From UHGV virus genome UHGV-0041830: a DNA stretch of 15,804 bases; one strand, written 5' to 3'. Below are positions 1,069 to 15,804 of this stretch, piece by piece. Both the position numbers and the translations under genes were made by a program. The DNA comes from a virus. The notes under the pieces were generated by a model that ran no database searches, was not told where the DNA came from, and saw only the letters and a list, made by a program, of their open reading frames with translations. Each line of letters starts with the position of its first letter. Position 1 is the first letter of the stretch.

Positions 1069-1078
1069 NNNNNNNNNN
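1069..1078. other. Assembly gap (N10); flanks 835-1068 and 1079-1312 are near-identical 234-bp copies with SNPs
   Basis: Run of 10 n. Sequence after the gap restarts at a point 234 bp before the gap (ttgataccgaaaaggcctttgaatatatcgcc...) with scattered substitutions. Confidence 0.95.
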
Positions 1079-1824: not shown

Positions 1825-3297
1825 TCTTTCACACATTATTGCAGCAGCATTCAATGAACCGCTGCTTCTGGAGCCCGCCTATGCGCGGGTTTTCTTTTGC
1901 GCGCTGGGGCGCGAGATGGGGGCAGCAAGTCTTTCGGTACCACAACAGCAGGTACAGTTTGATGCTCCCGGAATGCTGGCTGAAACGGACGAGTACATGG
2001 CCGGAGGTAAACGACCGGCCCGTGTTTACCGGGTGGTGAACGGTATTGCGGTACTGCCGGTGACCGGCACGCTGGTGCACCGGCTGGGTGGTATGCGGCC
2101 ATTTTCCGGAATGACAGGCTATGACGGCATTGTCGCCTGTCTTCAGCAGGCAATGGCGGATAGCCAGGTGCGGGGCGTACTGCTGGACATTGACAGTCCG
2201 GGCGGGCAGGCCGCCGGCGCGTTTGACTGCGCTGACATGATTTACCGCCTCCGTCAGCAGAAGCCGGTCTGGGCACTGTGCAATGACACGGCCTGTTCTG
2301 CAGCCATGCTGCTGGCGTCGGCCTGCTCCCGACGGCTGGTTACCCAGACATCCCGTATCGGTTCCATTGGCGTGATGATGAGCCATGTCAGCTATGCCGG
2401 TCATCTGGCGCAGGCCGGTGTGGATATCACGCTGATTTACTCAGGGGCGCACAAGGTGGATGGCAATCAGTTTGAAGCGTTGCCGGCAGAGGTTCGCCAG
2501 GACATGCAGCAGCGGATTGATGCGGCGCGCCGGATGTTTGCCGAAAAAGTGGCGATGTATACCGGTCTGTCTGTTGATGCAGTCACGGGAACAGAGGCCG
2601 CTGTTTTTGAAGGTCAGTCCGGCATTGAGGCCGGGCTGGCGGATGAATTAATCAATGCGTCGGATGCCATCAGTGTGATGGCCACGGCGCTGAACAGTAA
2701 TGTCAGAGGAGGCACTATGCCGCAATTAACTGCAACGGAAGCCGCCGTGCAGGAGAACCAGCGAGTGATGGGGATCCTGACATGCCAGGAAGCGAAAGGA
2801 CGTGAACAGCTTGCCACGATGCTGGCAGGACAACAGGGCATGAGCGTTGAACAGGCCCGGGCGATTCTGGCCGCGGCGGCACCGCAGCAGCCGGTGGCAT
2901 CCGCGCAGAGTGAAGCCGATCGCATTATGGCGTGTGAAGAAGCGAACGGTCGTGAACAACTGGCGGCAACGCTGGCGGCGATGCCGGAGATGACGGTGGA
3001 AAAAGCCCGCCCGATCCTGGCGGCTGCACCACTGGCGGATGCCGGGCCCTCGCTTCGTGATCAGATCATGGCCCTGGATGAGGCAAAAGGGGCAGAAGCG
3101 CAGGCTGAAAAACTGGCGGCCTGCCCGGGAATGACCGTGGAGAACGCCCGGGCTGTGCTGGCTGCGGGATCAGGTAAGGCAGAACCGGTCTCTGCATCCA
3201 CAACCGCCATGTTTGAACATTTCATGGCGAACCATTCACCGGCAGCGGTACAGGGTGGCGTGGCACAGACGTCAGCAGACGGTGATGCGGACGTGAA
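1814..3297 (+). CDS. C: Prohead protease/scaffold gpC (ClpP/S49-like serine peptidase family), 3' side cut by N10 gap
   Basis: GTG start at 1814 overlapping the portal stop by 11 nt. N-terminus RRNLSHIIAAAFNEPLLLEPAYARVFFCALG resembles lambda C (MTAELRNLPHIASMAFNEPLMLEPAYARVFFCAL...). C-terminal third carries Nu3-like repeats. Confidence 0.88.
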
Positions 3298-3307
3298 NNN
3301 NNNNNNN
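3298..3307. other. Assembly gap (N10); flanks 2988-3297 and 3308-3617 are ~310-bp near-identical copies
   Basis: Run of 10 n. Post-gap sequence agatgacggtggaaaaagcccgcccgatcctgg... repeats 2988 onward with roughly 8% substitutions. Confidence 0.95.
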
Positions 3308-3639
3308 AGATGACGGTGGAAAAAGCCCGCCCGATCCTGGCTGCTTCACCGCAGGCGGATGCCGGACCATCACTCCGTGATCAGATCATGGCACTGGATG
3401 AGGCAAAAGGGGCTGAGGCGCAGGCTGAACAGCTGGCTGCCTGCCCGGGAATGACAGTGGAGAGCGCCCGGGCTGTGCTGGCTGCGGGATCAGGTAAGGC
3501 CGAACCGGTCTCTGCATCCACAACCGCCCTGTTTGAACATTTCATGGCGAATCATTCACCGGCAGCGGTGCGGGGTGGCGTGTCACAGACGTCAGCAGAC
3601 GGTGATGCGGACGTGAAAATGCTCATGGCCATGCCATGA
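3308..3639 (+). CDS. nu3: 3' end of gpC / Nu3 scaffolding region (post-gap segment, 5'-partial)
   Basis: Codon boundary at 3310, stop TGA 3637-3639. Translation (...LRDQIMALDEAKGAEAQAEQLAACPGMTVESARAVLAAG...ADGDADVKMLMAMP) matches the pre-gap C tail and the lambda C/Nu3 C-terminus. Confidence 0.78.
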
Positions 3640-3675
3640 AGTCAGTGCTGACCATCAATATGAGGTTTTAACAAA

Positions 3676-4023
3676 ATGGTGACGAAAACCATCACTGAAC
3701 AGCGTGCGGAAGTACGTATTTTTGCCGGTAATGATCCGGCTCATACCGCCACAGGCAGCAGCGGGATTTCCTCGCCAACACCGGCACTGACGCCCCTGAT
3801 GCTGGATGAAGCCACCGGGAAACTGGTGGTCTGGGATGGACAGAAAGCCGGTAGTGCGGTTGGCATACTGGTACTGCCGCTTGAAGGCACAGAGACGGTG
3901 CTGACCTATTACAAGTCGGGGACCTTTGCGACGGAGGCAATCCGCTGGCCTGACAGTGTGGATGAACACAAAAAGGCAAATGCCTTTGCCGGCACAGCCC
4001 TGAGTCACGCGGCTCTGCCGTAA
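3676..4023 (+). CDS. D: Head decoration protein gpD
   Basis: 115 aa. GAGG Shine-Dalgarno ~10 nt upstream of ATG. Motifs NDPAHTATG, TPLMLD, KLVVWDG, AVGIL, YKSGTF, KANAFAGTA match lambda D (110 aa). Confidence 0.92.
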   Translation: MVTKTITEQRAEVRIFAGNDPAHTATGSSGISSPTPALTPLMLDEATGKLVVWDGQKAGSAVGILVLPLEGTETVLTYYKSGTFATEAIRWPDSVDEHKKANAFAGTALSHAALP

Positions 4024-4080
4024 CACGTTATCAGGCCACCATGGTGACCTGACTGATTTCTGAATGAAAGGAACTGATTT

Positions 4081-5109
4081 ATGGGATTGTTTACGACCCG
4101 CCAGTTACTCGGTTATACCGAACAAAAAGTTAAATTTCGTGCGCTGTTTCTGGAGCTGTTTTTCCGCCGTACGGTGAATTTCCACACCGAAGAGGTGATG
4201 CTGGACAAAATTACCGGAAAAACGCCGGTGGCGGCCTATGTCTCCCCGATCGTTGAAGGAAAAGTGCTTCGCCATCGCGGTGGTGAAACCCGCGTGTTAC
4301 GTCCGGGCTACGTCAAGCCGAAACACGAATTTAATTACCAGCAGGCGGTTGAGCGCCTTCCTGGTGAAGATCCGGCTCAGCTGAACGACCCGGCCTACCG
4401 TCGTCTGCGTATCATTACCGATAACCTCAAACAGGAAGAGCACGCCATTGTCCAGGTGGAAGAAATGCAGGCGGTGAATGCCGTGCTGTATGGCAAATAC
4501 ACCATGGAAGGGGATCAGTTTGATACTGTCGAGGTGGATTTCGGGCGCTCTGAAGGAAATAACATTGAGCAGGCTGACGGTAAAAAATGGTCTGAGCAGG
4601 ACCGTGATACGTTTGATCCGACGCATGATATTGACCTCTACTGCGATCAGGCCAGCGGCCTTGTGAATATCGCCATTATGGACGGTACGGTCTGGCGTCT
4701 GCTGAATGGCTTTAAGCTGTTCCGCGAAAAACTGGATACCCGTCGCGGCTCAAATTCACAACTCGAAACGGCAGTGAAAGATCTGGGCGCAGTGGTGTCC
4801 TTCAAGGGGTATTACGGCGATCTGGCCATTGTGGTGGCGAAAACGTCTTATGTGGCAGAGGACGGTACCGAAAAACGTTATCTGCCGGAGGGCATGCTGG
4901 TGTTGGGGAATACGGCGGCAGAGGGGATTCGTTGCTATGGTGCCATTAAGGATGCACAGGCGTTGTCTGAAGGAGTGGTGGCTTCTTCCCGTTACCCGAA
5001 ACACTGGCTGACCGTGGGCGATCCGTCCTGTGAATTCACCATGACGCAGTCCGCTCCGCTGATGGTGCTGCCGGATCCGGATGAGTTTGTGGTGGTACAG
5101 GTGAAATAA
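4081..5109 (+). CDS. E: Major capsid protein gpE
   Basis: 342 aa (lambda E 341 aa). AAAGGA RBS. Long identical stretches to lambda E (YVSPIV, PGYVKPKHE, DPAYRR, IVQVEEMQAV, KLDTRRGSNS, LETAVKDLG, TMTQSAPLM, LPDPDEFV). Confidence 0.95.
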   Translation: MGLFTTRQLLGYTEQKVKFRALFLELFFRRTVNFHTEEVMLDKITGKTPVAAYVSPIVEGKVLRHRGGETRVLRPGYVKPKHEFNYQQAVERLPGEDPAQLNDPAYRRLRIITDNLKQEEHAIVQVEEMQAVNAVLYGKYTMEGDQFDTVEVDFGRSEGNNIEQADGKKWSEQDRDTFDPTHDIDLYCDQASGLVNIAIMDGTVWRLLNGFKLFREKLDTRRGSNSQLETAVKDLGAVVSFKGYYGDLAIVVAKTSYVAEDGTEKRYLPEGMLVLGNTAAEGIRCYGAIKDAQALSEGVVASSRYPKHWLTVGDPSCEFTMTQSAPLMVLPDPDEFVVVQVK

Positions 5110-5117
5110 TCCGTGAG

Positions 5118-5146
5118 CGGGGGCGAAATGCCCCCGTGTCTTTTTT
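5118..5146 (+). terminator. Intrinsic-terminator-like hairpin downstream of the major capsid gene
   Basis: Stem CGGGGGC (5118-5124), loop GAAAT, stem GCCCCCG (5130-5136), then TGTC followed by TTTTTT (5141-5146), 9 nt after the E stop codon. Confidence 0.5.
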
Positions 5147-5160
5147 CACAGGAGGCTGAG

Positions 5161-5544
5161 ATGGCAACAAAAGAAGAAAATCTGAATCGTCTTCGTCAAC
5201 TGGCTGACCTGCTGGGGCGCGAGGCGGATATGTCGGGGAGTGCTGCGGATATTGCTCAACGTGTGTCTGAGTGGGAAGAGGAGCTTGCTGTTTCCCCGGA
5301 GGGCATTATGCACTCTGATGAGAGCGGGGCTGATCAAAATCACACAGACGATGGTGAGCAGTTGAACAACACGGATGCTCCGGATGATGTTAAAGCCGTC
5401 CGGGTACGGAAGTGCCTGCAAGTAATGGGGTATTGCCCGGAGACAGGTCGTCCCGTTGAGCTGGCGTTACGGGGTATGCGTGTTCTGGTGCCATCATCAC
5501 TGGCAACGGCCATGATACAGCACGGAACGGCTGAATATGCGTGA
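5161..5544 (+). CDS. FI: DNA packaging / head assembly protein FI
   Basis: ATG at 5161 preceded by AGGAGG. Size and position match lambda FI (132 aa). The ORF-track start at 5113 would read through the terminator hairpin and is not used. Confidence 0.8.
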   Translation: MATKEENLNRLRQLADLLGREADMSGSAADIAQRVSEWEEELAVSPEGIMHSDESGADQNHTDDGEQLNNTDAPDDVKAVRVRKCLQVMGYCPETGRPVELALRGMRVLVPSSLATAMIQHGTAEYA

Positions 5545-5890
5545 TTTTCAGAATGCCTTTGATGCTGCCCTCGCCGGGGTAGACAGTACGATCGTTGAAG
5601 TGATGGGGCTCTGTGCGCAGTTCACCTCGGGGGCACAGTGTGGCAGCGAAGTTCAGGGGGTTTTTGATGATCCGGAGTCGCTGGGGTTTGCCGGTGGCGG
5701 GGTCCGTATTGAAGGAAGCAGCCCGTCATTATTTGTGCGGACGGATACGGTTCGTGCCGTGCGGCGTGGTGACACGCTGACCATTAATGGTGAGATATTC
5801 TGGGTGGATCGTGTTTCTCCGGATGACGGGGGCAGCTGTTATCTCTGGCTCAACCGTGGTCAACCACCCGCAGTTAACCGGCGACGATAA
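5537..5890 (+). CDS. FII: Head-tail connector / head completion protein FII
   Basis: 117 aa, same length as lambda FII. GVFDDPE, GVRIEGSSPSLFVRTD, RRGDTLTI, FWVDRVSPDDGGSC, LWL, PPAVNRRR all match. Start overlaps the FI stop by 8 nt. Confidence 0.92.
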   Translation: MRDFQNAFDAALAGVDSTIVEVMGLCAQFTSGAQCGSEVQGVFDDPESLGFAGGGVRIEGSSPSLFVRTDTVRAVRRGDTLTINGEIFWVDRVSPDDGGSCYLWLNRGQPPAVNRRR

Positions 5891-5905
5891 ACGCAGGGTG
5901 AAATT

Positions 5906-6439
5906 ATGGCGATAAAAGGGCTTGATCAGGCGATTGACAATCTGAGCCGGGTTCGTAAAAACGCCATTCCGGCGGCTTCAGCAATGGCCATTAACCGCGT
6001 GGCCACAACGGCGATTAATCAGTCTTCATCACAGGTTGCCCGGGAGACAAAGGTTCGCCGGAAACTGGTTAAGGAACGGTCCAGACTGAAACGGGCGACG
6101 GTCAGAAATCCGAATGCCAGAATTATCGTTAACCGCGGTGATCTCCCTGTGATTAAGCTGGGGATCAGGATGCTGGGGCGTCGCCCGAACAGCATACTTA
6201 AAGCCGGTCAGCATCGGTATCAGCGGGCATTTATTCAGAGATTAAAAAATGGTCGCTGGCATGTCATGCAGCGTGTGGCCGGGAAAAACCGTTACCCCAT
6301 TGATGTGGTGAAAATCCCGATGGCGGCCCCACTGAAACAGGCATTTGATGAGAATGTTGACCGTATCCGGCGTGAACGCCTGCCTAAAGAACTGGCATAC
6401 GCGCTGAAACAACAACTGAGGATTGCAATAAAACGATGA
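5906..6439 (+). CDS. Z: Tail completion protein Z
   Basis: 177 aa basic protein in the lambda Z position between FII and U. AGGGTG RBS. Stop overlaps the U start (ATGA). Confidence 0.88.
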   Translation: MAIKGLDQAIDNLSRVRKNAIPAASAMAINRVATTAINQSSSQVARETKVRRKLVKERSRLKRATVRNPNARIIVNRGDLPVIKLGIRMLGRRPNSILKAGQHRYQRAFIQRLKNGRWHVMQRVAGKNRYPIDVVKIPMAAPLKQAFDENVDRIRRERLPKELAYALKQQLRIAIKR

Positions 6440-6831
6440 AACACACTGACATTCGTGCCGCAGTGCTGGATGCACTCGAGCAGCATGAACACGGGGCGAC
6501 GCTGTTTGATGGTCGCCCCGTTGTTTTTGACGAAGAGGATTTTCCTGCGATCGCGGTTTATCTGACGGATGCAGAGTATACCGGTGAAGAGCTGGATGCA
6601 GATACCTGGCGGGCCACGCTGCATATTGAGGTGTTTTTACCGGCACAGGTACCGGATTCAGAGCTTGATCAGTGGATGGAAAGCCGGATTTACCCGGCGA
6701 TGACCGCGATCCCGGCACTGGCAGGACTGATTACCACGATGGTTACGCAGGGCTATGAGTATCGTCGTGATGACGATATGGCGTTATGGAGTTCTGCAGA
6801 TCTGACTTATTCCATTACATACGAGATGTGA
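6436..6831 (+). CDS. U: Tail tube terminator protein U
   Basis: 131 aa, same length as lambda U. ATGA overlap with Z, positioned just upstream of V. Confidence 0.9.
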
Positions 6832-6838
6832 GGACGAT

Positions 6839-7591
6839 ATGGCAACACCAAATCCCCTTGAGCCGGTAAAAGGTGCCGGTACCACTCTGTGGGTTTACAA
6901 CGGCAAGGGTGATGCTTATGCAAACCCGTTGTCAGACGATGACTGGCAGCGACTGGCTAAGGTGAAGGATCTGACGCCGGGCGAGATGACGGCAGAATCC
7001 TACGATGATAACTACCTGGATGATGAAGACGCGGACTGGACCGCGACCGGGCAGGGGCAGAAATCTGCAGGTGATACCAGTTTTACGCTGGCCTGGAAAC
7101 CGGGAGAGGAAGGCCAGAAAGGGCTTATAGGCTGGTTTGAAAGCGGCGATGTCCGGGCCTATAAAATCCGTTTTCCGAATGGCACGGTGGATGTGTTTCG
7201 TGGCTGGGTCAGCAGTATCGGTAAGGCCGTGACGGCGAAAGAAGTGATCACCCGCACGGTGAAAGTCACTAACGTGGGTAAACCTTCTGTAGCGGAAGAA
7301 CGCAGCAAAATTACGCCGGTCAGTGCGATTAAGGTGACGCCGACATCCGGTACGGTGGCAAAAGGGAAAACAACCACCCTGACGGTTTCTTTTGAGCCGG
7401 AAAGTGCAACCGACAAGACGTTCAGAGCGGTTTCCGCCGATCCGTCGAAAGCCACCATTAGTGTGAAAGATATGACAATTACGGTAAACGGCGTGGCGAC
7501 AGGTAAGGTGCAGATCCCTGTGGTGAGCGGAAATGGTCAGTTCGCCGCAGTGGCTGAAGTCACCGTTACTGAAGCGGGCGCTGCAGGGTAA
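6839..7591 (+). CDS. V: Major tail tube protein V with C-terminal Ig-like domain
   Basis: 250 aa (lambda V 246 aa). GAGGA RBS. The C-terminal ~90 aa ([38 protein letters not shown]...) has the alternating-residue pattern of a bacterial Ig-like (Big_2) domain, as in lambda gpV. Confidence 0.92.
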
Positions 7592-7604
7592 ACGGAGGTA
7601 ATAC

Positions 7605-8036
7605 ATGTTTCTGAAAACAGAACAATTTGAATATAACGGTGTGTCTGTCACGCTTTCCGAATTGTCTGCGCTGCAGCGTATCGAGCATCTTGCCCTCCTG
7701 AAACGGCGTGCAGAACAGGCAGAATCCTGCGGCAACCTGCAGGTAAGCGTGGAAGATCTCGTCAGAACCGGCGCGTTTCTGGTGGCGATGTCCCTGTGGC
7801 ATAACCATCCACAGAAAACGCAGTCACCGTCAATGAATGAGGCCGTGATGAAGATAGAGCAGGAAGTGCTCACCACCTGGCCTGCCGATGCCATTGCCCG
7901 GGCGGAAGACGTGGTGTTGTGCCTGTCCGGGATGATCGAAGCTGTTCGTCCGGATACTGATATTACTGAAGTGGCGAAAAATAACACGCTGACTGATGAT
8001 GATTTTTCTGCGGGAAAGTCTTCGACGGCGAGCTGA
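7605..8036 (+). CDS. G: Tail assembly chaperone G
   Basis: 143 aa (lambda G 140 aa). GGAGG RBS. The C-terminus contains the slippery heptamer G_GGA_AAG in the zero frame. Confidence 0.9.
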   Translation: MFLKTEQFEYNGVSVTLSELSALQRIEHLALLKRRAEQAESCGNLQVSVEDLVRTGAFLVAMSLWHNHPQKTQSPSMNEAVMKIEQEVLTTWPADAIARAEDVVLCLSGMIEAVRPDTDITEVAKNNTLTDDDFSAGKSSTAS

Positions 8037-8476
8037 ACTTTGCCCTCAGACTGGCGCGTGAGATGGGGAGACCCGACTGGCGCGCCATGCTTGCCGGGAT
8101 GACATCCACCGAATATGCCGACTGGCACCGTTTTTACCGCACGCATTATTTTCAGGATACCCAGCTGGATATGCATTTTTCCGGGCTGACGTACGCTGTA
8201 CTCAGCCTGTTTTTTTGCGATCCGGATATGCATCCCTCTGATTTCAGTCTGCTTGTCCCCCGGCATGAGGAAGAGCAGGTGGAGAGGCCGGATGAGGACA
8301 AAATGCTGATGCAGAAAGCGGCAGGACTTGCCGGAGGCGTCCGGTTCGGTGGGGACGGAGGGCGCGATATTTTATCGTCTGCGGATGTGGCGGATGTCAT
8401 GGTGGATGATGCCGCATTAATGATGGCTTCAGCGGGGATTCCGGGAGGTGTGAGATATGTCCCAGCCGGTTGGTGA
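7605..8476 (+). CDS. T: Tail assembly chaperone G-T fusion made by programmed -1 ribosomal frameshift (join 7605..8018, 8018..8476)
   Basis: Slippery site GGGAAAG at 8012-8018 with GGA and AAG as zero-frame codons. The -1 frame is open from 8018 to TGA at 8474-8476 and encodes KVFDGELNFALRLAREMGRPDWRAMLAGMTSTEYADWHRFY... Same arrangement as lambda G/T. Confidence 0.85.
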
Positions 8477-11030
8477 TCTTGTTATTGACCTGAGTCTGGA
8501 TGCTGTCCGTTTCGATGAGCAGATGAGCCGGGTAAGGCGTCATTTTTCAGGTCTGGATACCGACGCCAGAAAAACCGCCAGTGCTGTTGAACAGGGCCTG
8601 AGCCGCCAGGCGCTGGCTGCACAAAAAGCCGGGATTTCCGTCGGGCAGTATAAAGCGGCCATGCGAACCCTGCCCGCACAGTTTACGGATATCGCCACGC
8701 AGCTTGCCGGTGGTCAGAATCCCTGGTTGATCCTGCTGCAACAGGGCGGTCAGGTGAAGGACTCCTTCGGCGGGATGATCCCCATGTTCAGGGGGCTTGC
8801 CGGTGCGATCACCCTGCCGATGGTCGGGGTCACCTCGCTGGCGGTGGCGACAGGTGCGCTGGCGTACGCCTGGTACCAGGGCGACGCCACGCTTTCAGAA
8901 TTTAATAAAACGCTGGTCCTTTCCGGCAATCAGGCCGGACTGACTGCCGATCGTATGCTGACGCTCTCAAGAGCCGGGCAGGCAGCAGGGCTGACGTTTA
9001 ACCAGGCGAGAGAGTCACTGGCAGCCTTGGTGAATGCCGGTGTGCGTGGTGGTGAACAGTTTGATGCCATCAACCAGAGTGTCGCGCGTTTTGCGTCTGC
9101 ATCCGGTGTGGAGGTGGATAAAGTCGCTGAAGCCTTCGGGAAGCTGACCACTGACCCGACGTCGGGACTGATGGCGATGGCGCGCCAGTTCCGTAACGTG
9201 ACGGCAGAGCAGATTGCGTATGTTGCACAGCTGCAGCGTTCCGGAGACGAGGCCGGGGCATTGCAGGCGGCGAACGATATCGCCACGAAAGGCTTTGATG
9301 AGCAGACCCGTCGCCTGAAAGAAAACATGGGAACACTGGAGACCTGGGCGGATAAAACAGGGAAGGCATTCAAATCGATGTGGGATGCCATTCTGGATAT
9401 CGGTCGTCCGGAATCCTCAGCGGATATGCTCGCCAGTGCGCAGAAGGCATTTGATGAGGCGGATAAAAAATGGCAGTGGTACCAGAGCCGGAGCCAGCGC
9501 CGGGGAAAGACCTCCTCTTTTCGTGCGAACCTTCAGGGGGCATGGGATGACCGGGAAAATGCCCGTCTGGGTCTGGCAGCGGCCACGCTGCAGTCGGATA
9601 TGGAAAAAGCCGGTGAACTGGCGGCAAGGGACAGGGCTGAGCGTGAGTCGTCACAGCTGAAGTATACCGGAGAGGCGCAGAAGGCGTATGAGCGCCTGCA
9701 GACGCCGCTGGATAAATATACCGCCCGTCAGAAAGAGCTGAATAAGGCCCTGAAAGACGGAAAAATCCTGCAGGCGGATTACAACACGCTGATGGCGTCG
9801 GCAAAAAAGGATTATGAATCGACGCTGAAAAAGCCGTCAGGTGTGAAGGTGTCTACCGGTGAGCGCCAGGAAGACCGGGCGCATGCAGCCCTGCTGGCGC
9901 TTGAAACCGAGCTCAGGACGCTGGAAAAACACAGCGGTGTGAATGAGAAAATCAGCCAGCAGCGCCGGGATTTATGGGAAGCGGAAAGTCAGTATGTGGT
10001 CCTGAAAGAGGCCGCCACGAAACGGCAGTTATCTGAGCAGGAAAAATCCCTGCTGGCTCATGAGAAAGAGACGCTGGAGTACAAACGCCAGCTGGCTGAG
10101 CTGGGAGACAAGATTGAACACCAGAAGCGGCTGAATGAGCTGGCACAGCAGGCGGCGCGGTTTGAACAGCAGCAAAGCGCGAAGCAGGCGGCAATCAGCG
10201 CAAAAGCCCGCGGCCTCACCGACCGTCAGGCGCAGCGGGAGTCGGAAGAGCAGCGCCTTCGTGAGGTGTACGGTGATAATCCGGCTGCGCTGGCGAAGGC
10301 CACATCGGCACTGAAGAACACCTGGTCTGCGGAGGAGCAGCTTCGTGGAAGCTGGATGGCCGGGATGAAGTCCGGCTGGGGAGAGTGGGCGGAAAGTGCG
10401 ACGGACAGTTTTTCGCAGGTTAAAAGTGTGGCCACGCAGACCTTTGACGGTATTGCACAGAATATGGCGGCGATGCTGACCGGCAGCGAACAGAACTGGC
10501 GGGGATTCACCCGTTCCGTGCTGTCCATGATGACAGAAATTCTGCTTAAGCAGGCAATGGTGGGGATTGTCGGGAGTATCGGCAGCGCTATTGGCGGGGC
10601 TGTTGGTGGCGGCGCATCCGCGTCAGGCGGTACAGCCATTCAGGCCGCTGCGGCGAAATTCCATTTTGCAACCGGAGGATTTACGGGAACCGGCGGCAAA
10701 TATGAGCCAGCGGGGATTGTTCACCGTGGTGAATTTGTCTTCACAAAGGAGGCAACCAGCCGGATTGGCGTGGGGAATCTCTATCGGCTGATGCGCGGCT
10801 ATGCCACCGGTGGTTATGTCGGTACACCGGGCAGTCTGGCTGACAGCCGGTCGCAGGCGTCCGGGACGTTTGAGCAGAATAACCATGTGGTGATTAACAA
10901 CGACGGCACGAACGGGCAGATAGGTCCGGCTGCTCTGAAGGCGGTGTATGACATGGCCCGCAAGGGTGCCCGTGATGAAATCCAGGCACAGATGCGCGAT
11001 GGTGGTCTGTTCTCCGGAGGTGGACGATGA
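8457..11030 (+). CDS. H: Tail tape measure protein H
   Basis: 857 aa (lambda H 853 aa). Long near-identical runs to lambda H (PVGDLVIDLSLDA, GISVGQYKAAMR, NPWLILLQQGGQVKDSFGGMIPMFRGLAGAITLPMVG, the C-terminal glycine-rich segment GGFTGTGGKYEPAGIVHRGEFVFTKEATSRIGVGNLYRLMRGYATGGYVG). Start overlaps the T-frame end by 20 nt. Confidence 0.95.
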   Translation: MSQPVGDLVIDLSLDAVRFDEQMSRVRRHFSGLDTDARKTASAVEQGLSRQALAAQKAGISVGQYKAAMRTLPAQFTDIATQLAGGQNPWLILLQQGGQVKDSFGGMIPMFRGLAGAITLPMVGVTSLAVATGALAYAWYQGDATLSEFNKTLVLSGNQAGLTADRMLTLSRAGQAAGLTFNQARESLAALVNAGVRGGEQFDAINQSVARFASASGVEVDKVAEAFGKLTTDPTSGLMAMARQFRNVTAEQIAYVAQLQRSGDEAGALQAANDIATKGFDEQTRRLKENMGTLETWADKTGKAFKSMWDAILDIGRPESSADMLASAQKAFDEADKKWQWYQSRSQRRGKTSSFRANLQGAWDDRENARLGLAAATLQSDMEKAGELAARDRAERESSQLKYTGEAQKAYERLQTPLDKYTARQKELNKALKDGKILQADYNTLMASAKKDYESTLKKPSGVKVSTGERQEDRAHAALLALETELRTLEKHSGVNEKISQQRRDLWEAESQYVVLKEAATKRQLSEQEKSLLAHEKETLEYKRQLAELGDKIEHQKRLNELAQQAARFEQQQSAKQAAISAKARGLTDRQAQRESEEQRLREVYGDNPAALAKATSALKNTWSAEEQLRGSWMAGMKSGWGEWAESATDSFSQVKSVATQTFDGIAQNMAAMLTGSEQNWRGFTRSVLSMMTEILLKQAMVGIVGSIGSAIGGAVGGGASASGGTAIQAAAAKFHFATGGFTGTGGKYEPAGIVHRGEFVFTKEATSRIGVGNLYRLMRGYATGGYVGTPGSLADSRSQASGTFEQNNHVVINNDGTNGQIGPAALKAVYDMARKGARDEIQAQMRDGGLFSGGGR

Positions 11031-11040
11031 AAACCTTCCG

Positions 11041-11050
11041 NNNNNNNNNN
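11041..11050. other. Assembly gap (N10); flanks 10948-11040 and 11051-11143 are 93-bp near-identical copies (H 3' end and M start)
   Basis: Run of 10 n. atgacatggcccgcaagggtgcccgtgatgaaat... appears on both sides with a few substitutions. The pre-gap side already contains the H stop and an M start codon (ATG 11027). Confidence 0.95.
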
Positions 11051-11129
11051 ATGACATGGCCCGCAAGGGTGCCCGTGATGAAATTCAGACACAGATGCGT
11101 GATGGTGGACTGTTCTCCGGAGGTGGACG

Positions 11130-11459
11130 ATGAAAACCTTCCGCTGGAAAGTGAAACCCGGGATGGATGTGACATCGGCTCCTTCCGTCAGGGAGGTGCG
11201 CTTTGGTGATGGCTATTCCCAGCGTGCGCCTGCCGGGCTGAACGCTGACCTGAAAACGTACAGCGTGACGCTGTCTGTCTCCCGTGAGGAGGCCACGGCG
11301 CTGGAGTCGTTTCTGGCTGAGCACGGGGGCTGGAAGGCCTTTCTGTGGACGCCGCCTTATGGTTACAGGCAGATAAAGGTGACCTGCGCAAAATGGTCGT
11401 CGCAGGTCAGTATGTTGCGTGTTGGGTTCAGCGCAGAGTTTAAACAGGTGGTGAACTGA
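11130..11459 (+). CDS. M: Tail tip protein M
   Basis: 109 aa, same length as lambda M. Start ATGA-overlaps the (duplicated) H stop. Stop TGA overlaps the L start by 1 nt. Confidence 0.9.
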   Translation: MKTFRWKVKPGMDVTSAPSVREVRFGDGYSQRAPAGLNADLKTYSVTLSVSREEATALESFLAEHGGWKAFLWTPPYGYRQIKVTCAKWSSQVSMLRVGFSAEFKQVVN

Positions 11460-12157
11460 TGCAGGATATCCGGCAGGAAACATTGAATGAATGCACCCGT
11501 GCGGAGCAGTCGGCCAGCGTGGTGCTCTGGGAAATCGATCTGACAGAGGTCGGTGGAGAACGTTATTTTTTCTGTAATGAGCAGAACGAAAAAGGTGAGC
11601 CGGTCACCTGGCAGGGGAGGCAGTATCAGGCGTATCCCATTCAGGGGAGCGGTTTTGAACTGAATGGCAAAGGCACCAGTACGCGGCCCACGCTGGCAGT
11701 CTCTAACCTGTACGGCATGGTCACCGGTATGGTGGAAGATATGCAGAGTCTGGTCGGCGGAACGGTGGTCCGGCGTAAGGTTTACGCCCGTTTTCTGGAT
11801 GCGGTGAACTTCGTCAACGGAAACAGAGACGCCGATCCGGAGCAGGAGGTGATCAGCCGCTGGCGCATCGAGCAGTGCAGCGAACTGAGTGCGGTCAGTG
11901 CCTCCTTTGTACTGTCCACACCGACGGAAACGGATGGTGCCGTTTTTCCGGGGCGCATCATGCTGGCTAATACCTGCACCTGGACCTATCGCGGTGATGA
12001 GTGCGGTTATCACGGTCCGGCAGTCGCGGATGAATATGACCAGCCGACGTCCGATATCACGAAGGATAAATGCAGCAAATGCCTGAGCGGCTGTAAGTTT
12101 CGCAATAACGTCGGCAACTTTGGCGGCTTCCTTTCCATTAACAAACTTTCGCAGTAA
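11459..12157 (+). CDS. L: Tail tip protein L (C-terminal cysteine cluster)
   Basis: 232 aa, same length as lambda L. C-terminal cysteine cluster CTWTYRGDECGYHG...CSKCLSGC. Confidence 0.9.
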   Translation: MQDIRQETLNECTRAEQSASVVLWEIDLTEVGGERYFFCNEQNEKGEPVTWQGRQYQAYPIQGSGFELNGKGTSTRPTLAVSNLYGMVTGMVEDMQSLVGGTVVRRKVYARFLDAVNFVNGNRDADPEQEVISRWRIEQCSELSAVSASFVLSTPTETDGAVFPGRIMLANTCTWTYRGDECGYHGPAVADEYDQPTSDITKDKCSKCLSGCKFRNNVGNFGGFLSINKLSQ

Positions 12158-12161
12158 TCCC

Positions 12162-12905
12162 ATGACAGAGACAGAATCAGCGATTCTGGCGCACGCCCGG
12201 CGATGTGCGCCAGCGGAGTCGTGCGGCTTCGTGGTAAGCACGCCGGAGGGGGAAAGATATTTCCCCTGCGTGAATATCTCCGGTGAGCCGGAGGCGTATT
12301 TCCGGATGGCTCCGGAGGACTGGCTGCAGGCAGAGATGCAGGGTGAGATTGTGGCGCTGGTCCACAGTCATCCCGGTGGTCTGCCCTGGCTGAGTGAGGC
12401 CGACCGGCGGCTGCAGGTGCAGAGTGATTTGCCGTGGTGGCTGGTCTGCCGGGGGGCGATTCATAAGTTCCGCTGTGTGCCGCATCTCACCGGGCGGCGC
12501 TTTGAGTACGGGGTGACAGACTGTTACACACTGTTCCGGGATGCTTACCATCTGGCGGGGATTGAGATGCCGGATTTTCATCGCGGGGATGACTGGTGGC
12601 GTCACGGTCAGAATCTCTATCTTGACAATATGGAGGCTACTGGTTTTTACCGTGTCGCACTGACAGAGGCGCAGCCGGGCGATGTGCTGCTGTGCTGTTT
12701 TGGTTCATCGGTGCCGAATCACGCCGCCATTTACTGCGGCGACGGTGAGCTGCTGCACCATATTCCTGAACAACTGAGTAAACGAGAGAGGTATACCGAC
12801 AAATGGCAGCGACGCACACACTCCCTCTGGCGTCACCGGGAATGGCACGCATCTGCCTTTACGGGGATTTGCAACGATTTGGCCGCCGCATCGACCTTCG
12901 TGTGA
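12162..12905 (+). CDS. K: Tail tip assembly protein K, JAB/MPN (JAMM) metalloprotease-like plus NlpC/P60 domains, full-length reading
   Basis: ATG at 12162 is 4 nt after the L stop, open to TGA at 12903-12905. JAMM motif HSHPGGLPWLSEAD (12364-12403) with upstream ESCG (12206-12217). Cys in VTDCYTLF and His residues downstream fit an NlpC/P60 core. The shorter reading from the internal ATG at 12306 is about 199 aa. Confidence 0.82.
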   Translation: MTETESAILAHARRCAPAESCGFVVSTPEGERYFPCVNISGEPEAYFRMAPEDWLQAEMQGEIVALVHSHPGGLPWLSEADRRLQVQSDLPWWLVCRGAIHKFRCVPHLTGRRFEYGVTDCYTLFRDAYHLAGIEMPDFHRGDDWWRHGQNLYLDNMEATGFYRVALTEAQPGDVLLCCFGSSVPNHAAIYCGDGELLHHIPEQLSKRERYTDKWQRRTHSLWRHREWHASAFTGICNDLAAASTFV

Positions 12906-13444
12906 AAACGGGGGCTGAAGCCATCCGGGCACTGGCCACACAGCTCCCGGCGTTTCGTCAGAAACTGAGCGATGGCTGGTATCAGGTACGGATTGCCGGG
13001 CGGGATGCAGGAGAAACCGAATTATCATCCCGTCTTAATGAGCCGCTGGCAAATGGTGCCGTGATCCACATCGTGCCGCGTCTTGCGGGAGCAAAAAGTG
13101 GCGGTGTGTTTCAGGCGGTGCTGGGTGCGGCGTTGATTGCTACGGCAATCTGGATGCCGGGGATCAGTATCGCTTTCAGTGACATTCTCTTTTCAATGGG
13201 TGCGGCGATGACGCTTGGTGGTGTGGCGCAGATGCTGGCACCGAAAGCCAGAACTCCCCGTACACAGACAACGGATAACGGCAAACAGAACACCTATTTC
13301 TCCTCACTGGATAACATGGTTGCCCAGGGCAATGTCCTGCCTGTTCTGTACGGTGAAATGCGCGTGGGGTCACGTGTGGCATCTCAGGAGATCAGCACGG
13401 CAGATGAAGGGGATGGTGGTCAGGTTGTGGTAATTGGGCGGTAA
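12803..13444 (+). CDS. I: Tail tip assembly protein I (variant allele), N-terminal ubiquitin-like domain ending in Gly-Gly
   Basis: 213 aa. N- and C-terminal thirds match lambda gpI. The central segment (DAGETELSSRLNEPLANG...AVLGAALIATAIWMPGISIAFSDILFSMGAAMTLGG) differs from the second copy at 14195-14775. Overlaps K by 103 nt. An alternative start at ATG 12842 is possible. Confidence 0.85.
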   Translation: MAATHTLPLASPGMARICLYGDLQRFGRRIDLRVKTGAEAIRALATQLPAFRQKLSDGWYQVRIAGRDAGETELSSRLNEPLANGAVIHIVPRLAGAKSGGVFQAVLGAALIATAIWMPGISIAFSDILFSMGAAMTLGGVAQMLAPKARTPRTQTTDNGKQNTYFSSLDNMVAQGNVLPVLYGEMRVGSRVASQEISTADEGDGGQVVVIGR

Positions 13445-13517
13445 TATTATTTTACTCATGTTCTAACTAATTTAATATTTATATCGAACACTGATAATTA
13501 TTCTATTGGTTAGCTAT
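13445..13517 (+). promoter_or_regulatory. AT-rich putative promoter/leader of the inserted lipoprotein gene
   Basis: Extremely AT-rich 73 bp. Candidate -35 TTTAAT (13471-13476) and -10 GATAAT (13493-13498) with 16-bp spacer. Weak, unvalidated prediction. Confidence 0.3.
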
Positions 13518-13856
13518 ATGAACAAAACGATTTTATTCTGCACGATTATTGCCTTAACAGGATGTAAATCTTTGGATTACGTAAAATCCGGAAAACCTGT
13601 AATGGAAGGTAATTCATTAAAAAATATTGATGAATTGTCAGGCTGCATATCCAGACAATGGGCTGGTAATGGAACACCTATAACATCCCTTCCTATTGAG
13701 AATGGGGTAAGCCTTTTAGTTCCACAGGCTATGGGGGGATATGATGTTGTGCTTGATATCAAAAAAGCAGGAAATGGCAGTAGTTTTACTCTTTATGAAC
13801 GTGTACCAGCATTAACGCCAAAAATTTTTGCTGATAGTGTTAATGCATGTAAATAA
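13518..13856 (+). CDS. Predicted outer-membrane lipoprotein of unknown function (moron inserted between tail genes I and J)
   Basis: 112 aa. N-terminus MNKTILFCTIIALTG|CKS is a textbook signal peptidase II signal: basic n-region, hydrophobic core, lipobox L-T-G-C, and Lys (not Asp) at +2 after the lipidated Cys. Two further Cys residues. Tandem TAA TAG stops. ~36% GC against GC-rich flanks. Start could alternatively be TTG 13506. Confidence 0.75.
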   Translation: MNKTILFCTIIALTGCKSLDYVKSGKPVMEGNSLKNIDELSGCISRQWAGNGTPITSLPIENGVSLLVPQAMGGYDVVLDIKKAGNGSSFTLYERVPALTPKIFADSVNACK

Positions 13857-13880
13857 TAGTTAATCCTGTCGTAACTCATG

Positions 13881-13908
13881 AGCCGCCTTTTGGGCGGCTT
13901 TGTTGTTT
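13881..13908 (+). terminator. GC hairpin plus T-tract between the moron and J (conserved in the second I-J junction)
   Basis: AGCCGCC (13881-13887), loop TTTTG, GGCGGCT (13893-13899), then TTGTTGTTT. Lies 14 nt upstream of the J ATG. Confidence 0.45.
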
Positions 13909-13922
13909 ATGGAGTGTGAGGA

Positions 13923-14184
13923 ATGGGTAAAGGAAGCAGTAAGGGGCATACCCCGCGCGAAGCGAGGGACAACCTGAAGTCCACGCAGCTGCTGAGTGTG
14001 ATCGATGCCATCAGCGAAGGGCCGGTTGAAGGTCCGGTGGATGGATTAAAAAGCGTGCTGCTGAACAGTACGCCGGTGCTGGACAGTGAGGGGAATACCA
14101 ATATATCCGGTGTCACGGTGGTGTTCCGGGCAGGTGAGCAGGAGCAGACACCGCCGGAGGGATTTGAATCCTCCGGCTCCGAGA
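13923..14184 (+). CDS. J: Central tail fiber / tip attachment protein J, N-terminal 87 codons (copy 1, cut by N10 gap)
   Basis: MGKGSSKGHTPREARDNLKSTQLLSVIDAISEGPVEGPVDGLKSVLLNSTPVLDSEGNTNISGVTVVFRAGEQEQTPPEGFESSGSE matches the lambda J N-terminus almost exactly. GAGGA RBS. Confidence 0.92.
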
Positions 14185-14194
14185 NNNNNNNNNN
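14185..14194. other. Assembly gap (N10) joining a segment ending in J to a segment beginning inside the K/I overlap
   Basis: Run of 10 n. Post-gap sequence accttcgtgtgaaaacgggggctgaagcc... corresponds to 12894 onward, so this is not a simple overlap: the following segment is an alternative copy of the I-J locus. Confidence 0.95.
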
Positions 14195-14775
14195 ACCTTC
14201 GTGTGAAAACGGGGGCTGAAGCCATCCGCGCACTGGCCACACAGCTCCCGGTGTTTCGTCAGAAACTGAGCGACGGCTGGTATCAGGTACGGATTGCCGG
14301 GCGGGACGTCAGCACGTCCGGGTTAACGGCGCAGTTACATGAGACTCTGCCTGATGGCGCTGTGATTCATATTGTTCCCAGAGTCGCCGGGGCCAAGTCA
14401 GGTGGCGTATTCCAGATTGTCCTGGGGGCTGCCGCCATTGCCGGATCATTCTTTACCGCCGGAGCCACCCTTGCAGCATGGGGGGCAGCCATTGGGGCCG
14501 GTGGTATGACCGGCATCCTGTTTTCTCTCGGTGCCAGTATGGTGCTCGGTGGTGTGGCGCAGATGCTGGCACCGAAAGCCAGAACTCCCCGTACACAGAC
14601 AACGGATAACGGCAAACAGAACACCTATTTCTCCTCACTGGATAACATGGTTGCCCAGGGCAATGTTCTGCCGGTTCTGTACGGTGAAATGCGCGTGGGG
14701 TCACGCGTGGTTTCTCAGGAGATCAGCACGGCAGACGAAGGGGATGGTGGTCAGGTTGTGGTGATTGGTCGCTGA
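14195..14775 (+). CDS. I: Tail tip assembly protein I (lambda-like allele), 5'-truncated by gap
   Basis: Codon boundary at 14197, stop TGA 14773-14775. Central segment DVSTSGLTAQLHETLPDGAVIHIVPRVAGAKSGGVFQIVLGAAAIAGSFFTAGATLAAWGAAIGAGGMTGILFSLGASMVLGG matches lambda gpI as I recall it. Confidence 0.88.
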
Positions 14776-14793
14776 TGCAAAATGTTTTATGTG

Positions 14794-14820
14794 AAACCGC
14801 CTCCGGGCGGTTTTATCGTT
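14794..14820 (+). terminator. GC hairpin plus T-tract upstream of J (second copy)
   Basis: AAACCGCC (14794-14801), loop TCCG, GGCGGTTT (14806-14813), perfect 8-bp stem followed by TATCGTTT. Same position relative to the J start as 13881-13908. Confidence 0.45.
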
Positions 14821-14835
14821 TATGGAGCATGAGGA

Positions 14836-15220
14836 ATGGGTAAAGGCAGCAGTAAGGGGCATACCCCGCGCGAAGCGAAGGACAACCTGAAATCATCCCA
14901 GATGCTGAGCGTGATAGACGCCATCAGCGAAGGGCCGGTTGAAGGTCCGGTGGATGGATTAAAAAGCGTGCTGCTGAACAGTACGCCGGTGCTGGACAGT
15001 GAGGGGAATACCAATATATTCGGCGTCACGGTGGTGTTCCGGGCCGGTGAGCAGGAGCAGACTCCGCCGGAGGGATTTGAATCCTCCGGCTCCGAGACGG
15101 TGCTGGGTACGGAAGTGAAATATGACACGCCGATCACCCGGACCATCACGTCGGCAAACATCGACCGTCTGCGCTTTACCTTCGGTGTGCAGGCACTGGT
15201 GGAAACCACCTCAAAGGGGG
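14836..15220 (+). CDS. J: Tail tip attachment protein J, N-terminal part (copy 2, pre-gap)
   Basis: Near-identical to 13923-14184 and to the lambda J N-terminus. Continues ...TVLGTEVKYDTPITRTITSANIDRLRFTFGVQALVETTSKG. Confidence 0.92.
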
Positions 15221-15230
15221 NNNNNNNNNN
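15221..15230. other. Assembly gap (N10); flanks 15128-15220 and 15231-15323 are 93-bp near-identical copies within J
   Basis: Run of 10 n. cgccgatcacccggaccatcacgtcggcaaacat... is present on both sides with substitutions. Confidence 0.95.
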
Positions 15231-15804
15231 CGCCGATCACCCGGACCATCACGTCGGCAAACATTGACCGTCTGCGTTTTACTTTCGGCGTGCAGGCACT
15301 GGTGGAAACCACCTCAAAGGGGGACAGGAATCCATCGGAAGTCCGCCTGCTGGTTCAGATTCAACGTAACGGTGGCTGGGTGACGGAAAAAGACATCACC
15401 ATTAAGGGCAAAACCACGTCGCAGTATCTGGCCTCGGTGGTGGTGGATAACCTGCCGCCGCGCCCGTTTAATATCCGGATGCGCAGGATGACGCCGGACA
15501 GCACCACAGACCAGTTGCAGAACAAAACGCTCTGGTCGTCATACACCGAAATCATCGATGTGAAACAGTGCTACCCGAACACGGCACTGGTCGGCGTACA
15601 GGTGGACTCGGAGCAGTTCGGCAGCCAGCAGGTGAGCCGTAATTATCATCTTCGCGGGCGCATTCTGCAGGTGCCGTCGAACTATAACCCGCAGACGCGG
15701 CAATACAGCGGTATCTGGGACGGAACGTTTAAGCCAGCATACAGCAACAACATGGCCTGGTGTCTGTGGGATATGCTGACCCATCCGCGCTACGGCATGG
15801 GGAA
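15231..15804 (+). CDS. J: Tail tip attachment protein J, continuation, 3'-partial at window edge
   Basis: Codon boundary at 15233. Translation ...PITRTITSANIDRLRFTFGVQALVETTSKGDRNPSEVRLLVQIQRNGGWVTEKDITIKGKTTSQYLASVVVDNLPPRPFNIRMRRMTPDSTTDQLQNKTLWSSYTEIIDVKQCYPNTALVGVQVDSEQFGSQQVSRNYHLRGRILQVPSNYNPQTRQYSGIWDGTFKPAYSNNMAWCLWDMLTHPRYGMG matches lambda J residues ~100-300. Confidence 0.92.

What the first reader, a model, noticed from the sequence alone, without database searches (positions are those of the whole stretch)
12803..14835. Two alleles of the I-J locus in one window: internal empty-site control and a mosaic gpI
Segment 12894-14184 (K end, I, moron, J start) and segment 14195-15220 (I, J start) are alternative versions of the same locus joined by an N10 gap. 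They agree closely at the I N-terminal region and from ccgaaagccagaactccccgtacacag (13241 / 14572) through the J start. They differ in two places. The central part of I (about 13000-13240 vs 14320-14570) is replaced by unrelated sequence of different length (213 vs lambda-like 223 aa frame), both keeping the AGAKSGG motif. And the I-J spacer is ~60 bp in copy 2 but ~475 bp with the lipoprotein gene in copy 1. This is modular recombination inside a tail-tip assembly gene and at the moron site.
Basis: seen in the sequence. Interest (0 to 1): 0.55.

Follow-up and report, generated by a model that had tools for sequence, protein, structure and literature searches.

The report
Two lambda-like prophages stitched together
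The "two versions" of the phage tail genes I-J are real, but they come from two separate lambda-like prophages of one E. coli genome, placed side by side by draft-assembly scaffolding; their differences are ordinary phage mosaicism plus one inserted small lipoprotein gene.

Summary
Segments 12894-14184 and 14195-15220 are two versions of K-end/I/J-start, separated by an N10 gap. The juxtaposition is a scaffolding artefact: all five N10 gaps in the window are flanked by overlapping, 92-97% identical sequence. The six contigs lie in reference order and switch allele at their ends. In complete genomes such as UTI89, copy 1 (99.9%) and copy 2 (99.4%) sit in two different lambdoid prophages about 148 kb apart.

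Copy 2 is essentially lambda: gpI differs from lambda gpI at 2 residues and the 60-bp I-J spacer is the same. Copy 1 differs in two independent ways.
- A sharply bounded 210-nt block in gene I (13006-13215) has 56% nt identity and a 30-nt deletion. It is homologous, not unrelated, and covers the end of the N-domain and hydrophobic helices H1/H2. This short allele class is common: about 2,500 of 5,426 complete E. coli genomes, plus cultured phages.
- A roughly 430-bp, 34% GC moron carries a 112-aa lipoprotein gene (PHROG 914, function unknown), followed by a hairpin and T-run. It occurs in 337 of 5,426 genomes. Relatives sit at other tail-operon sites (K-I, T-H) in other genera.

This is ordinary lambdoid mosaicism. 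The only open item is the lipoprotein's function.

The parts
12162..12905 (+). Gene K (C40/JAB tail-tip peptidase) of prophage A. Its 3' end overlaps I.
   Evidence: Maps to UTI89_RS07270 (L001 15360-16103, offset 3198).
12803..13444 (+). Gene I, copy 1: tail-tip protein gpI of the short 213-aa allele class.
   Evidence: Pfam PF06805 at 85.1 bits against a cutoff of 23.8. PHROG 32. 85% identical to lambda gpI in the alignment (tblastn gives 81%). Same allele in UTI89 and O104:H4.
13006..13215 (+). Divergent recombinant block of I, copy 1. It corresponds to lambda gpI residues about 69-137: the end of the N-domain, the AGAKSGG linker, and hydrophobic helices H1/H2. It is 10 codons shorter than in lambda.
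   Evidence: 56.2% nt identity to copy 2, against 95-97% in the flanks; max chi-square 107.7 with 0 of 200 permutations. Domain map from PMC11101478.
13445..13878 (+). Moron cassette: a low-GC insert absent from copy 2, lambda and PhiR49_1.
   Evidence: GC 33.6% against 57-58% in the flanks. Appears as a gap in alignments with copy 2, lambda and PhiR49_1. Present in 337 of 5,426 complete E. coli genomes.
13518..13856 (+). 112-aa predicted outer-membrane lipoprotein. Signal peptide with lipobox LTGC, Lys at position +2, and two further conserved Cys.
   Evidence: Translation. PHROG 914 at E 7e-33, function unknown. G15, C16, C43 and C111 are invariant in the family. AF2 model with pLDDT 83.6. 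RefSeq WP_001332187.1 is annotated 'hypothetical protein'.
13880..13910 (+). GC-rich hairpin plus T-run between the moron and J (terminator-like).
   Evidence: Terminator scan. Fold energy -16.7 kcal/mol, z = -4.1. Equivalent hairpins follow the homologous cassettes in Klebsiella and Enterobacter.
13923..14184 (+). 5' end of gene J, copy 1, cut by the contig end.
   Evidence: Maps to UTI89 gpJ, L001 17121 onward.
14185..14194 (.). N10 scaffold gap.
14195..14775 (+). Gene I, copy 2: lambda class in the 223-aa frame, with the first 30 codons missing at the contig start.
   Evidence: Differs from lambda gpI at 2 residues over the part present. Positions 14195-15104 are identical to UTI89 prophage B.
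14776..14835 (+). Empty lambda-type I-J spacer, with a hairpin at 14791-14816.
   Evidence: Nearly identical to the lambda I-J spacer. Hairpin energy -17.4 kcal/mol.
14836..15220 (+). 5' end of gene J, copy 2. The last 116 nt carry prophage-A-type variants.
15221..15230 (.). N10 scaffold gap, followed by a contig whose first 93 nt repeat 15128-15220 at 96% identity.

Best explanation
The window is a pseudo-scaffold. Six short draft contigs from the late region (portal to J) of lambda-like prophages were ordered by their coordinate on a reference and joined with N10 linkers. The source genome has at least two such prophages, so contigs from different copies map to the same place and were laid down one after another with overlapping ends.

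Contig 11051-14184 comes from a prophage of the UTI89 'trp-side' type, with the order K, short-class I, lipoprotein moron, J. Contig 14195-15220 comes from a second prophage of the UTI89 'iss/sit-side' type, whose I and I-J spacer are essentially those of lambda.

The two copies differ through two independent, ordinary events of lambdoid evolution.
1. Homologous recombination brought in a deeply diverged block of gene I. It encodes the end of the N-terminal domain and the two hydrophobic helices H1/H2. The C-terminal plug and strands that contact gpJ remain almost identical.
2. A low-GC moron was inserted between the I stop codon and the I-J hairpin. It consists of an AT-rich leader, a 112-aa lipoprotein gene and a hairpin terminator.

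Inferred, not shown: the lipoprotein is exported, lipidated and sorted to the outer membrane, and acts in the lysogen as a conversion factor. Superinfection exclusion at the envelope is the likeliest role (about 0.35). A Bor/Iss-like host-fitness role is next (about 0.2).
For: Scaffold artefact:
- There are five N10 runs, and each is flanked by direct repeats of 92-97% identity.
- Contig start points on UTI89 prophage A rise monotonically: 3866, 4700, 6609, 14249, 16092, 17413.
- Mismatches to prophage A or B cluster at contig ends. For example, 14195-15104 is identical to prophage B, and all 6 differences in that contig lie in its last 116 nt.

Two prophages:
- Copy 1 matches UTI89 1424732-1426113 at 99.9%. 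Copy 2 matches UTI89 1276332-1277357 at 99.4%.
- 16 of the top 25 genomes are shared between the two searches, always with the copies about 148-151 kb apart.

Gene I:
- Copy 2 gpI equals lambda gpI apart from 2 residues.
- The breakpoints are sharp.
- The short class is found in PhiR49_1, mEp460 and cdtI, and in about 2,499 genomes.
- Domain assignment comes from PMC11101478.

Moron:
- GC is 33.6%.
- The site is empty in copy 2, lambda and PhiR49_1.
- A hairpin with T-run follows the gene.
- Homologous cassettes lie between K and I in Klebsiella, between T and the tape-measure gene in Enterobacter, next to an integrase, and in a non-phage chromosomal site.
- The lipobox and Cys residues are conserved.
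- Tail-operon morons that encode exclusion proteins have a precedent in HK97 gp15 (PMC3594210).
Against: - No reads and no information on the source assembly were available, so 'reference-ordered scaffold' is inferred from the pattern alone.
- Contigs 1-1068 and 1079-3297 match neither UTI89 prophage well (95.5-98.6%), so the source strain is not UTI89 and may carry a third copy.
- No convincing sigma-70 promoter lies upstream of the lipoprotein gene; the best candidates score 8 of 12.
- Lambda's empty site already has an equivalent hairpin, so the terminator may belong to the backbone rather than the moron.
- The moron sits next to different J receptor-binding domains in UTI89 and strain 6409, which are 42-45% identical over the last ~165 aa. 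This argues against a Cor-like block of the phage's own receptor.
Confidence: 0.9

Rival explanations
1. A real tandem partial duplication inside one prophage, with the order K-I-moron-J'-K'-I-J. The N10 would then simply mark an unresolved stretch.
For: The two copies are adjacent and in the same orientation in the window.
Against: The same overlap pattern occurs at all five gaps. Copy 2 is identical over 910 nt to a distinct prophage located 148 kb away in UTI89. In every one of the 16 complete genomes that appear in both top-25 hit lists, the two versions lie about 148-151 kb apart rather than adjacent.
Confidence: 0.03
2. The two versions come from two strains or a heterogeneous population: a mixed culture, a contaminant, or a with/without-moron polymorphism at one prophage locus.
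For: A draft short-read assembly cannot phase the variants. Contig ends switch between allele types.
Against: Both versions co-occur in single closed chromosomes of many strains, including UTI89, S88, APEC O1, NU14 and ATCC 11775. The copies differ in the I block as well as in the moron, and copy 2 matches the second prophage exactly. A second prophage in the same genome is therefore sufficient and expected.
Confidence: 0.05
3. The lipoprotein is a tail-assembly or virion accessory protein, co-expressed with the late operon, and not a lysogenic-conversion moron.
For: It sits inside the tail-tip gene block, usually next to I. No strong promoter of its own was found.
Against: It is absent from lambda, PhiR49_1 and prophage B, which have near-identical K, I C-terminus and J N-terminus. 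Its GC content is foreign. Homologues occur next to an integrase and in a non-phage chromosomal context beside ecotin. In one genome it is disrupted by IS3. Lipoprotein export puts it in the envelope rather than the cytoplasm, where tails assemble.
Confidence: 0.05

Closest known systems
Phage lambda gpI (tail-tip protein; Pfam PF06805; PDB 8IYK/8XCG as cited in PMC11101478)
   Same: Copy 2 is lambda gpI apart from 2 residues. Copy 1 keeps the N-terminal domain hit, the AGAKSGG motif, two hydrophobic segments, and a C-terminal plug/strand region that is nearly identical.
   Different: Copy 1 carries a diverged module for residues about 69-137 (56% nt identity) with a 10-residue deletion in the H1-H2 region. 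It belongs to the 213-215-aa class seen in PhiR49_1, mEp460 and cdtI.
HK97 gene 15 moron (a superinfection-exclusion protein encoded between the G/T chaperone genes and the tape-measure gene)
   Same: It is extra DNA inside the tail operon with a differing GC content and a terminator. The Enterobacter homologue of the lipoprotein occupies exactly the T / tape-measure site.
   Different: gp15 is an inner-membrane protein with no sequence relationship to this one. Here the product is a predicted outer-membrane lipoprotein, no promoter was demonstrated, and no exclusion phenotype has been tested.
Cor (phi80/N15) and Llp (T5) receptor-blocking lipoproteins
   Same: They are small phage-encoded lipoproteins encoded near tail or host-range genes (background from PMC4936722).
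   Different: There is no sequence match to any Pfam, NCBIfam or PADLOC model. The moron is linked to different J receptor-binding domains.
Lambda Bor / Iss lipoprotein and Lom (lysogenic-conversion morons)
   Same: They are prophage-borne envelope proteins expressed for the host's benefit. An iss gene lies in the partner prophage B, and a Lom-family gene follows J in prophage A.
   Different: They have different sequences and different genome positions.
Francisella Flpp3 (DUF3568), DUF302 proteins and the BamC N-domain (fold level only)
   Different: Sequence identity is 6-13%. The similarity is generic and says nothing about function.

Membership tests
Lambda tail assembly/tip protein I (PF06805, PHROG 32) | N-terminal Lambda_tail_I domain scoring above the Pfam gathering score. 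| tested here: met
   85.1 bits for copy 1 and 72.8 bits for copy 2, against a cutoff of 23.8.
Lambda tail assembly/tip protein I (PF06805, PHROG 32) | Gene lies between K (C40/JAB peptidase) and J, overlapping the end of K. | tested here: met
   ORF layout and UTI89/lambda annotation.
Lambda tail assembly/tip protein I (PF06805, PHROG 32) | Hydrophobic H1/H2 segment followed by a conserved C-terminal plug/strand region. | tested here: met
   Alignment with lambda gpI. Domain map from PMC11101478.
Moron (Hendrix/Juhala sense) | Extra DNA at a site that is empty in close relatives. | tested here: met
   Empty in copy 2, lambda and PhiR49_1.
Moron (Hendrix/Juhala sense) | Base composition differs from the neighbouring genes. 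| tested here: met
   33.6% GC against 57-58%.
Moron (Hendrix/Juhala sense) | Own terminator downstream. | tested here: inconclusive
   A hairpin with T-run lies at 13880-13910, and homologous cassettes elsewhere have one too. However, lambda's empty site has an equivalent hairpin.
Moron (Hendrix/Juhala sense) | Own promoter, with expression from the repressed prophage. | tested here: inconclusive
   No site passes the consensus scan. The best relaxed candidates score 8 of 12 in the AT-rich leader. Expression cannot be tested here.
Bacterial lipoprotein (signal peptidase II substrate) | N-terminal signal peptide ending in the lipobox [LVI][ASTVI][GAS]C. | tested here: met
   MNKTILFCTIIALTGC. 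G15 and C16 are invariant across homologues.
Bacterial lipoprotein (signal peptidase II substrate) | Lipid modification and membrane localisation. | not testable with these tools
   Lys at +2 rather than Asp suggests outer-membrane sorting under the E. coli Lol rule (established knowledge). This is inference only.
Cor/Llp-type receptor-masking exclusion lipoproteins | Sequence or fold homology to Cor or Llp. | tested here: not met
   No Pfam, NCBIfam, PADLOC or PDB sequence hits. Neither appears among the top fold hits.
Cor/Llp-type receptor-masking exclusion lipoproteins | Blocks adsorption or DNA entry of phages that use a given receptor. | not testable with these tools
   Needs plating or adsorption assays.
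Genuine tandem duplication | Continuous sequence across the junction of the two copies. | tested here: not met
   The junction is an N10 linker, and the copies lie about 148-151 kb apart in the closed genomes inspected.

The most novel reading that the evidence does not exclude
The PHROG-914 lipoprotein could be a new envelope-level superinfection-exclusion factor. On this reading it acts on the incoming tail-tip protein gpI, whose hydrophobic H1/H2 helices are proposed to insert into the outer membrane, much as HK97 gp15 acts through the adjacent tape-measure protein.

This would explain two things: why the cassette is so often found directly next to gene I (E. coli I-[X]-J; Klebsiella and metagenomes K-[X]-I; Pseudomonas phiAH14a [X]-TAPI), and why the H1/H2 module of gpI is the hypervariable, recombining part of the protein.

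The evidence does not exclude this, but nothing tested here supports it beyond gene adjacency and the predicted cellular location.
Probability: 0.1. Interest if true: 0.55.

Novelty: already known. Interest (0 to 1): 0.15.

Why it matters
Mainly as a caution. In scaffolded draft genomes with several lambdoid prophages, N-linked contigs from different copies can look like duplications or "alleles". They should not be read as local structure.

Biologically, the window shows textbook lambdoid mosaicism. Both versions are already present and annotated in hundreds of closed E. coli genomes.

The one loose end of some value is the uncharacterised outer-membrane lipoprotein moron. It is carried by about 6% of complete E. 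coli genomes, including UTI89, S88, APEC O1 and O104:H4. It moves between tail-operon intergenic sites in several genera and has no assigned function.

Tried and rejected
- A tblastn of the lipoprotein against 50,697 phage records gave no match at 1e-5. The cassette is known only from prophages and metagenomes.
- Pfam, NCBIfam, PADLOC and PDB sequence searches gave nothing.
- The afdb50 fold library was unavailable.
- The sigma-70 promoter scan found no site upstream of the lipoprotein gene. A relaxed scan found only 8-of-12 candidates.
- A literature search for WP_001332187, and for a lipoprotein moron in the I-J region, found nothing specific.
- The P0006 context look-up is not on record.
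- Cor-like 'blocks own receptor' model: weakened, because the J receptor-binding domains differ between moron carriers.
- Strict linkage of the moron to one I allele: rejected. Strain 6409 has the moron with a different H1/H2 block, and PhiR49_1 has the short I class without the moron.
- phiAH14a_p34 as a split-off signal peptide of the p33 homologue: rejected, because its translation is not signal-like.
Full report
**Observation**

The window contains five N10 runs: 1069-1078, 3298-3307, 11041-11050, 14185-14194 and 15221-15230. The repeat finder shows that at every one of them the sequence after the gap repeats the sequence before it, at 92-97% identity:
- 835-1068 and 1079-1312
- 2988-3287 and 3308-3607
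- 10948-11040 and 11051-11143
- 15128-15220 and 15231-15323
- 12894-14184 and 14195-15220, the largest case and the one in the finding

Block identities:

| Block | Copy 1 | Copy 2 | Identity |
|---|---|---|---|
| I 5' part | 12894-13005 | 14195-14306 | 97.3% |
| I central | 13006-13215 | 14307-14546 | 56.2%, plus a 30-nt indel |
| I 3' part | 13216-13444 | 14547-14775 | 95.2% (119 nt perfect) |
| J start | 13923-14184 | 14836-15097 | 94.7% |

The I-J spacer is 478 bp in copy 1 and 60 bp in copy 2. In gene I, 93 of 106 substitutions fall within 13005-13217 (max chi-square 107.7; 0 of 200 permutations reach it). The mosaic boundary is therefore real and sharp.

**Why two copies are in one window**

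Copy 1 (12803-14184) matches the closed chromosome of UTI89 at 99.9% (1424732-1426113). There it lies in a lambdoid prophage next to the trp operon, annotated as C40 peptidase, tail assembly protein, hypothetical protein, gpJ. Copy 2 matches UTI89 at 99.4% (1276332-1277357), in a different lambdoid prophage that carries iss and lies next to sitABCD. The two loci are about 148 kb apart.

Sixteen of the 25 best genomes are shared between the two searches, including S88, APEC O1, NU14 and ATCC 11775. In each, the two loci are about 148-151 kb apart.

I blasted the six window contigs against both UTI89 prophages:

| Contig | Prophage A | Prophage B |
|---|---|---|
| 1-1068 | 97.1% | 95.5% |
| 1079-3297 | 98.3% | 98.6% |
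| 3308-11040 | 99.6% | 78-93% |
| 11051-14184 | 99.5% | 92-94% |
| 14195-15220 | 78-95% | 99.4% |
| 15231-15804 | 97.9% | 99.1% |

Contig start points on prophage A rise monotonically (3866, 4700, 6609, 14249, 16092, 17413), as expected if contigs were sorted by their mapped position on a reference. Mismatches cluster at contig ends. Positions 14195-15104 are identical to prophage B. All six differences in that contig lie in its last 116 nt, at sites where A and B differ. The start of 3308-11040 is B-type and then becomes A-type. This is the signature of short-read assembly through near-identical repeats.

The juxtaposition is therefore a scaffolding artefact, not a local duplication.

**Gene I**

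Both copies hit Pfam Lambda_tail_I well above threshold. Copy 2 differs from lambda gpI at 2 residues over the part present. Copy 1 is 213 aa and 85% identical to lambda gpI in that alignment.

The divergent block aligns throughout. GAVIHIVPR and AGAKSGGVFQ are retained but encoded with different codons. The block is therefore a deeply diverged homologous module imported by recombination, not unrelated sequence.

According to the lambda tail-tip structures (PMC11101478), gpI has:
- an unresolved N-terminal domain
- two hydrophobic helices H1/H2, proposed to insert into the outer membrane
- a plug (residues 159-175)
- C-terminal strands threaded through gpJ

The divergent block covers the end of the N-domain and H1/H2. 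The J-contacting C-terminus is conserved, as is the J N-terminus.

The short class is common:
- Cultured phages PhiR49_1 (213 aa) and mEp460/cdtI (215 aa) carry it.
- Its first 135 nt occur at about 90-95% identity in roughly 2,500 of 5,426 complete E. coli genomes, including O157:H7.
- Sub-variants of the H1/H2 segment exist in strain 6409, ESY001 and PhiR49_1.

**The moron**

The insert at 13445-13878 is 33.6% GC, against 57-58% in the flanks. It lies between the I stop codon and a hairpin with T-run (13880-13910; -16.7 kcal/mol, z = -4.1).

Copy 2, lambda and PhiR49_1 all have the same 60-bp empty spacer with an equivalent hairpin. Because PhiR49_1 combines a short-class I with an empty spacer, the I mosaic and the moron are independent events.

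The ORF at 13518-13856 encodes a 112-aa protein beginning MNKTILFCTIIALTGC (a lipobox), with Lys at +2 and two further Cys. Database results:
- PHROG 914, function unknown.
- No match in Pfam, NCBIfam, PADLOC or PDB sequences.
- No match in 50,697 phage records.
- The cassette is in 337 of 5,426 complete E. coli genomes, including O104:H4. In one genome it is disrupted by IS3.

Homologues of 50-60% identity occur in Klebsiella, Enterobacter, Kluyvera and Jejubacter. A profile search finds 125 cluster representatives, nearly all 105-125 aa long. Their genomic contexts differ:

| Context | Where |
|---|---|
| K-[X]-I | Klebsiella |
| K-[X]-I | metagenome contig |
| K-[X] (contig ends after X) | metagenome contig |
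| [X]-I | metagenome contig |
| T-[X]-tape measure | Enterobacter |
| next to an integrase | prophage end |
| non-phage chromosomal site beside ecotin | CP001560.1 |

Each enterobacterial cassette has its own downstream hairpin with T-run.

**Mechanism**

Shown here: the layout, the foreign base composition, the mobility between sites, the conserved lipobox and the hairpin.

Inferred: export, lipidation and outer-membrane sorting, and a role in the lysogen. Tail-operon morons that encode exclusion proteins have a precedent in HK97 gp15, which sits at the T/tape-measure site (PMC3594210).

Two points weaken this reading. Against a Cor-like block of the phage's own receptor, the moron is linked to different J receptor-binding domains in UTI89 and strain 6409 (42-45% identity over the last ~165 aa). 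And no convincing promoter was found.

**Verdict**

What is there is ordinary: two paralogous lambdoid prophage loci placed together by scaffolding, differing by routine module exchange and a moron. All of it is already present in hundreds of annotated closed genomes. Interest is low. The lipoprotein's function is the only open question.

Noticed in passing
window 1069-1078, 3298-3307, 11041-11050, 15221-15230: Every other N10 gap is also flanked by overlapping, 93-96% identical contig ends (overlaps of 234, about 300, 93 and 93 nt). Any apparent duplication next to an N run in this window is a scaffolding artefact.
   Followed up: yes
window 1-1068 and 1079-3297: These two contigs (portal and head-protease region) match neither UTI89 prophage closely (97.1/95.5% and 98.3/98.6%), and they switch between A-type and B-type variants along their length. 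This suggests a third lambdoid copy or chimeric consensus contigs.
   Followed up: partly
window 13454-13460 and 13874-13880: A 7-bp direct repeat, ACTCATG, brackets the moron cassette 420 bp apart. It could be a recombination microhomology or chance (roughly 5% expected in windows of this size).
   Followed up: partly
window 8012-8018: The lambda-type slippery heptamer GGGAAAG lies near the end of gene G. This fits the conserved G/G-T programmed -1 frameshift.
   Followed up: partly
window 6932-8266, minus strand: A 444-aa ATG-started ORF runs antisense to V-G-T. It has no Pfam match and is probably a mechanical ORF.
   Followed up: partly
L014 (KU708004) 1638-1919 and 999-1580: Pseudomonas phage phiAH14a p33 is a distant homologue of the lipoprotein (27% identity, TM 0.70-0.83) but lacks an annotated signal peptide. 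It sits directly upstream of a second, isolated copy of tail assembly protein I.
   Followed up: partly
L018 (CP001560.1) 3501-3839: A family member (P0025) lies in a non-prophage chromosomal context, between a YidB-like gene and ecotin and near copCD/yebY. This suggests the moron gene has a cellular origin. From memory, the organism is Shimwellia blattae; I did not check this.
   Followed up: no
L012 (NZ_CP147578.1) 2500-4230: In strain GN05476 the moron is interrupted by an IS3-family element and gene I is frameshifted. The locus is decaying in some lineages.
   Followed up: partly
L002 84-377 and L001 20668-21267: The partner prophage B carries the iss (Bor-like) lipoprotein gene. Prophage A carries an Ail/Lom-family gene after J. 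Both prophages therefore have other envelope-protein morons.
   Followed up: no
window 13880-13900, 14791-16; L009 (lambda) about 1459-1489: A stable GC hairpin with T-run is conserved between I and J even in lambda's empty site. In the moron-bearing copy the stem carries changes on both arms (GAAACCGCC...GGCGGTTT versus GAGCCGCC...GGCGGCTT). Its role inside the late operon is unclear.
   Followed up: partly
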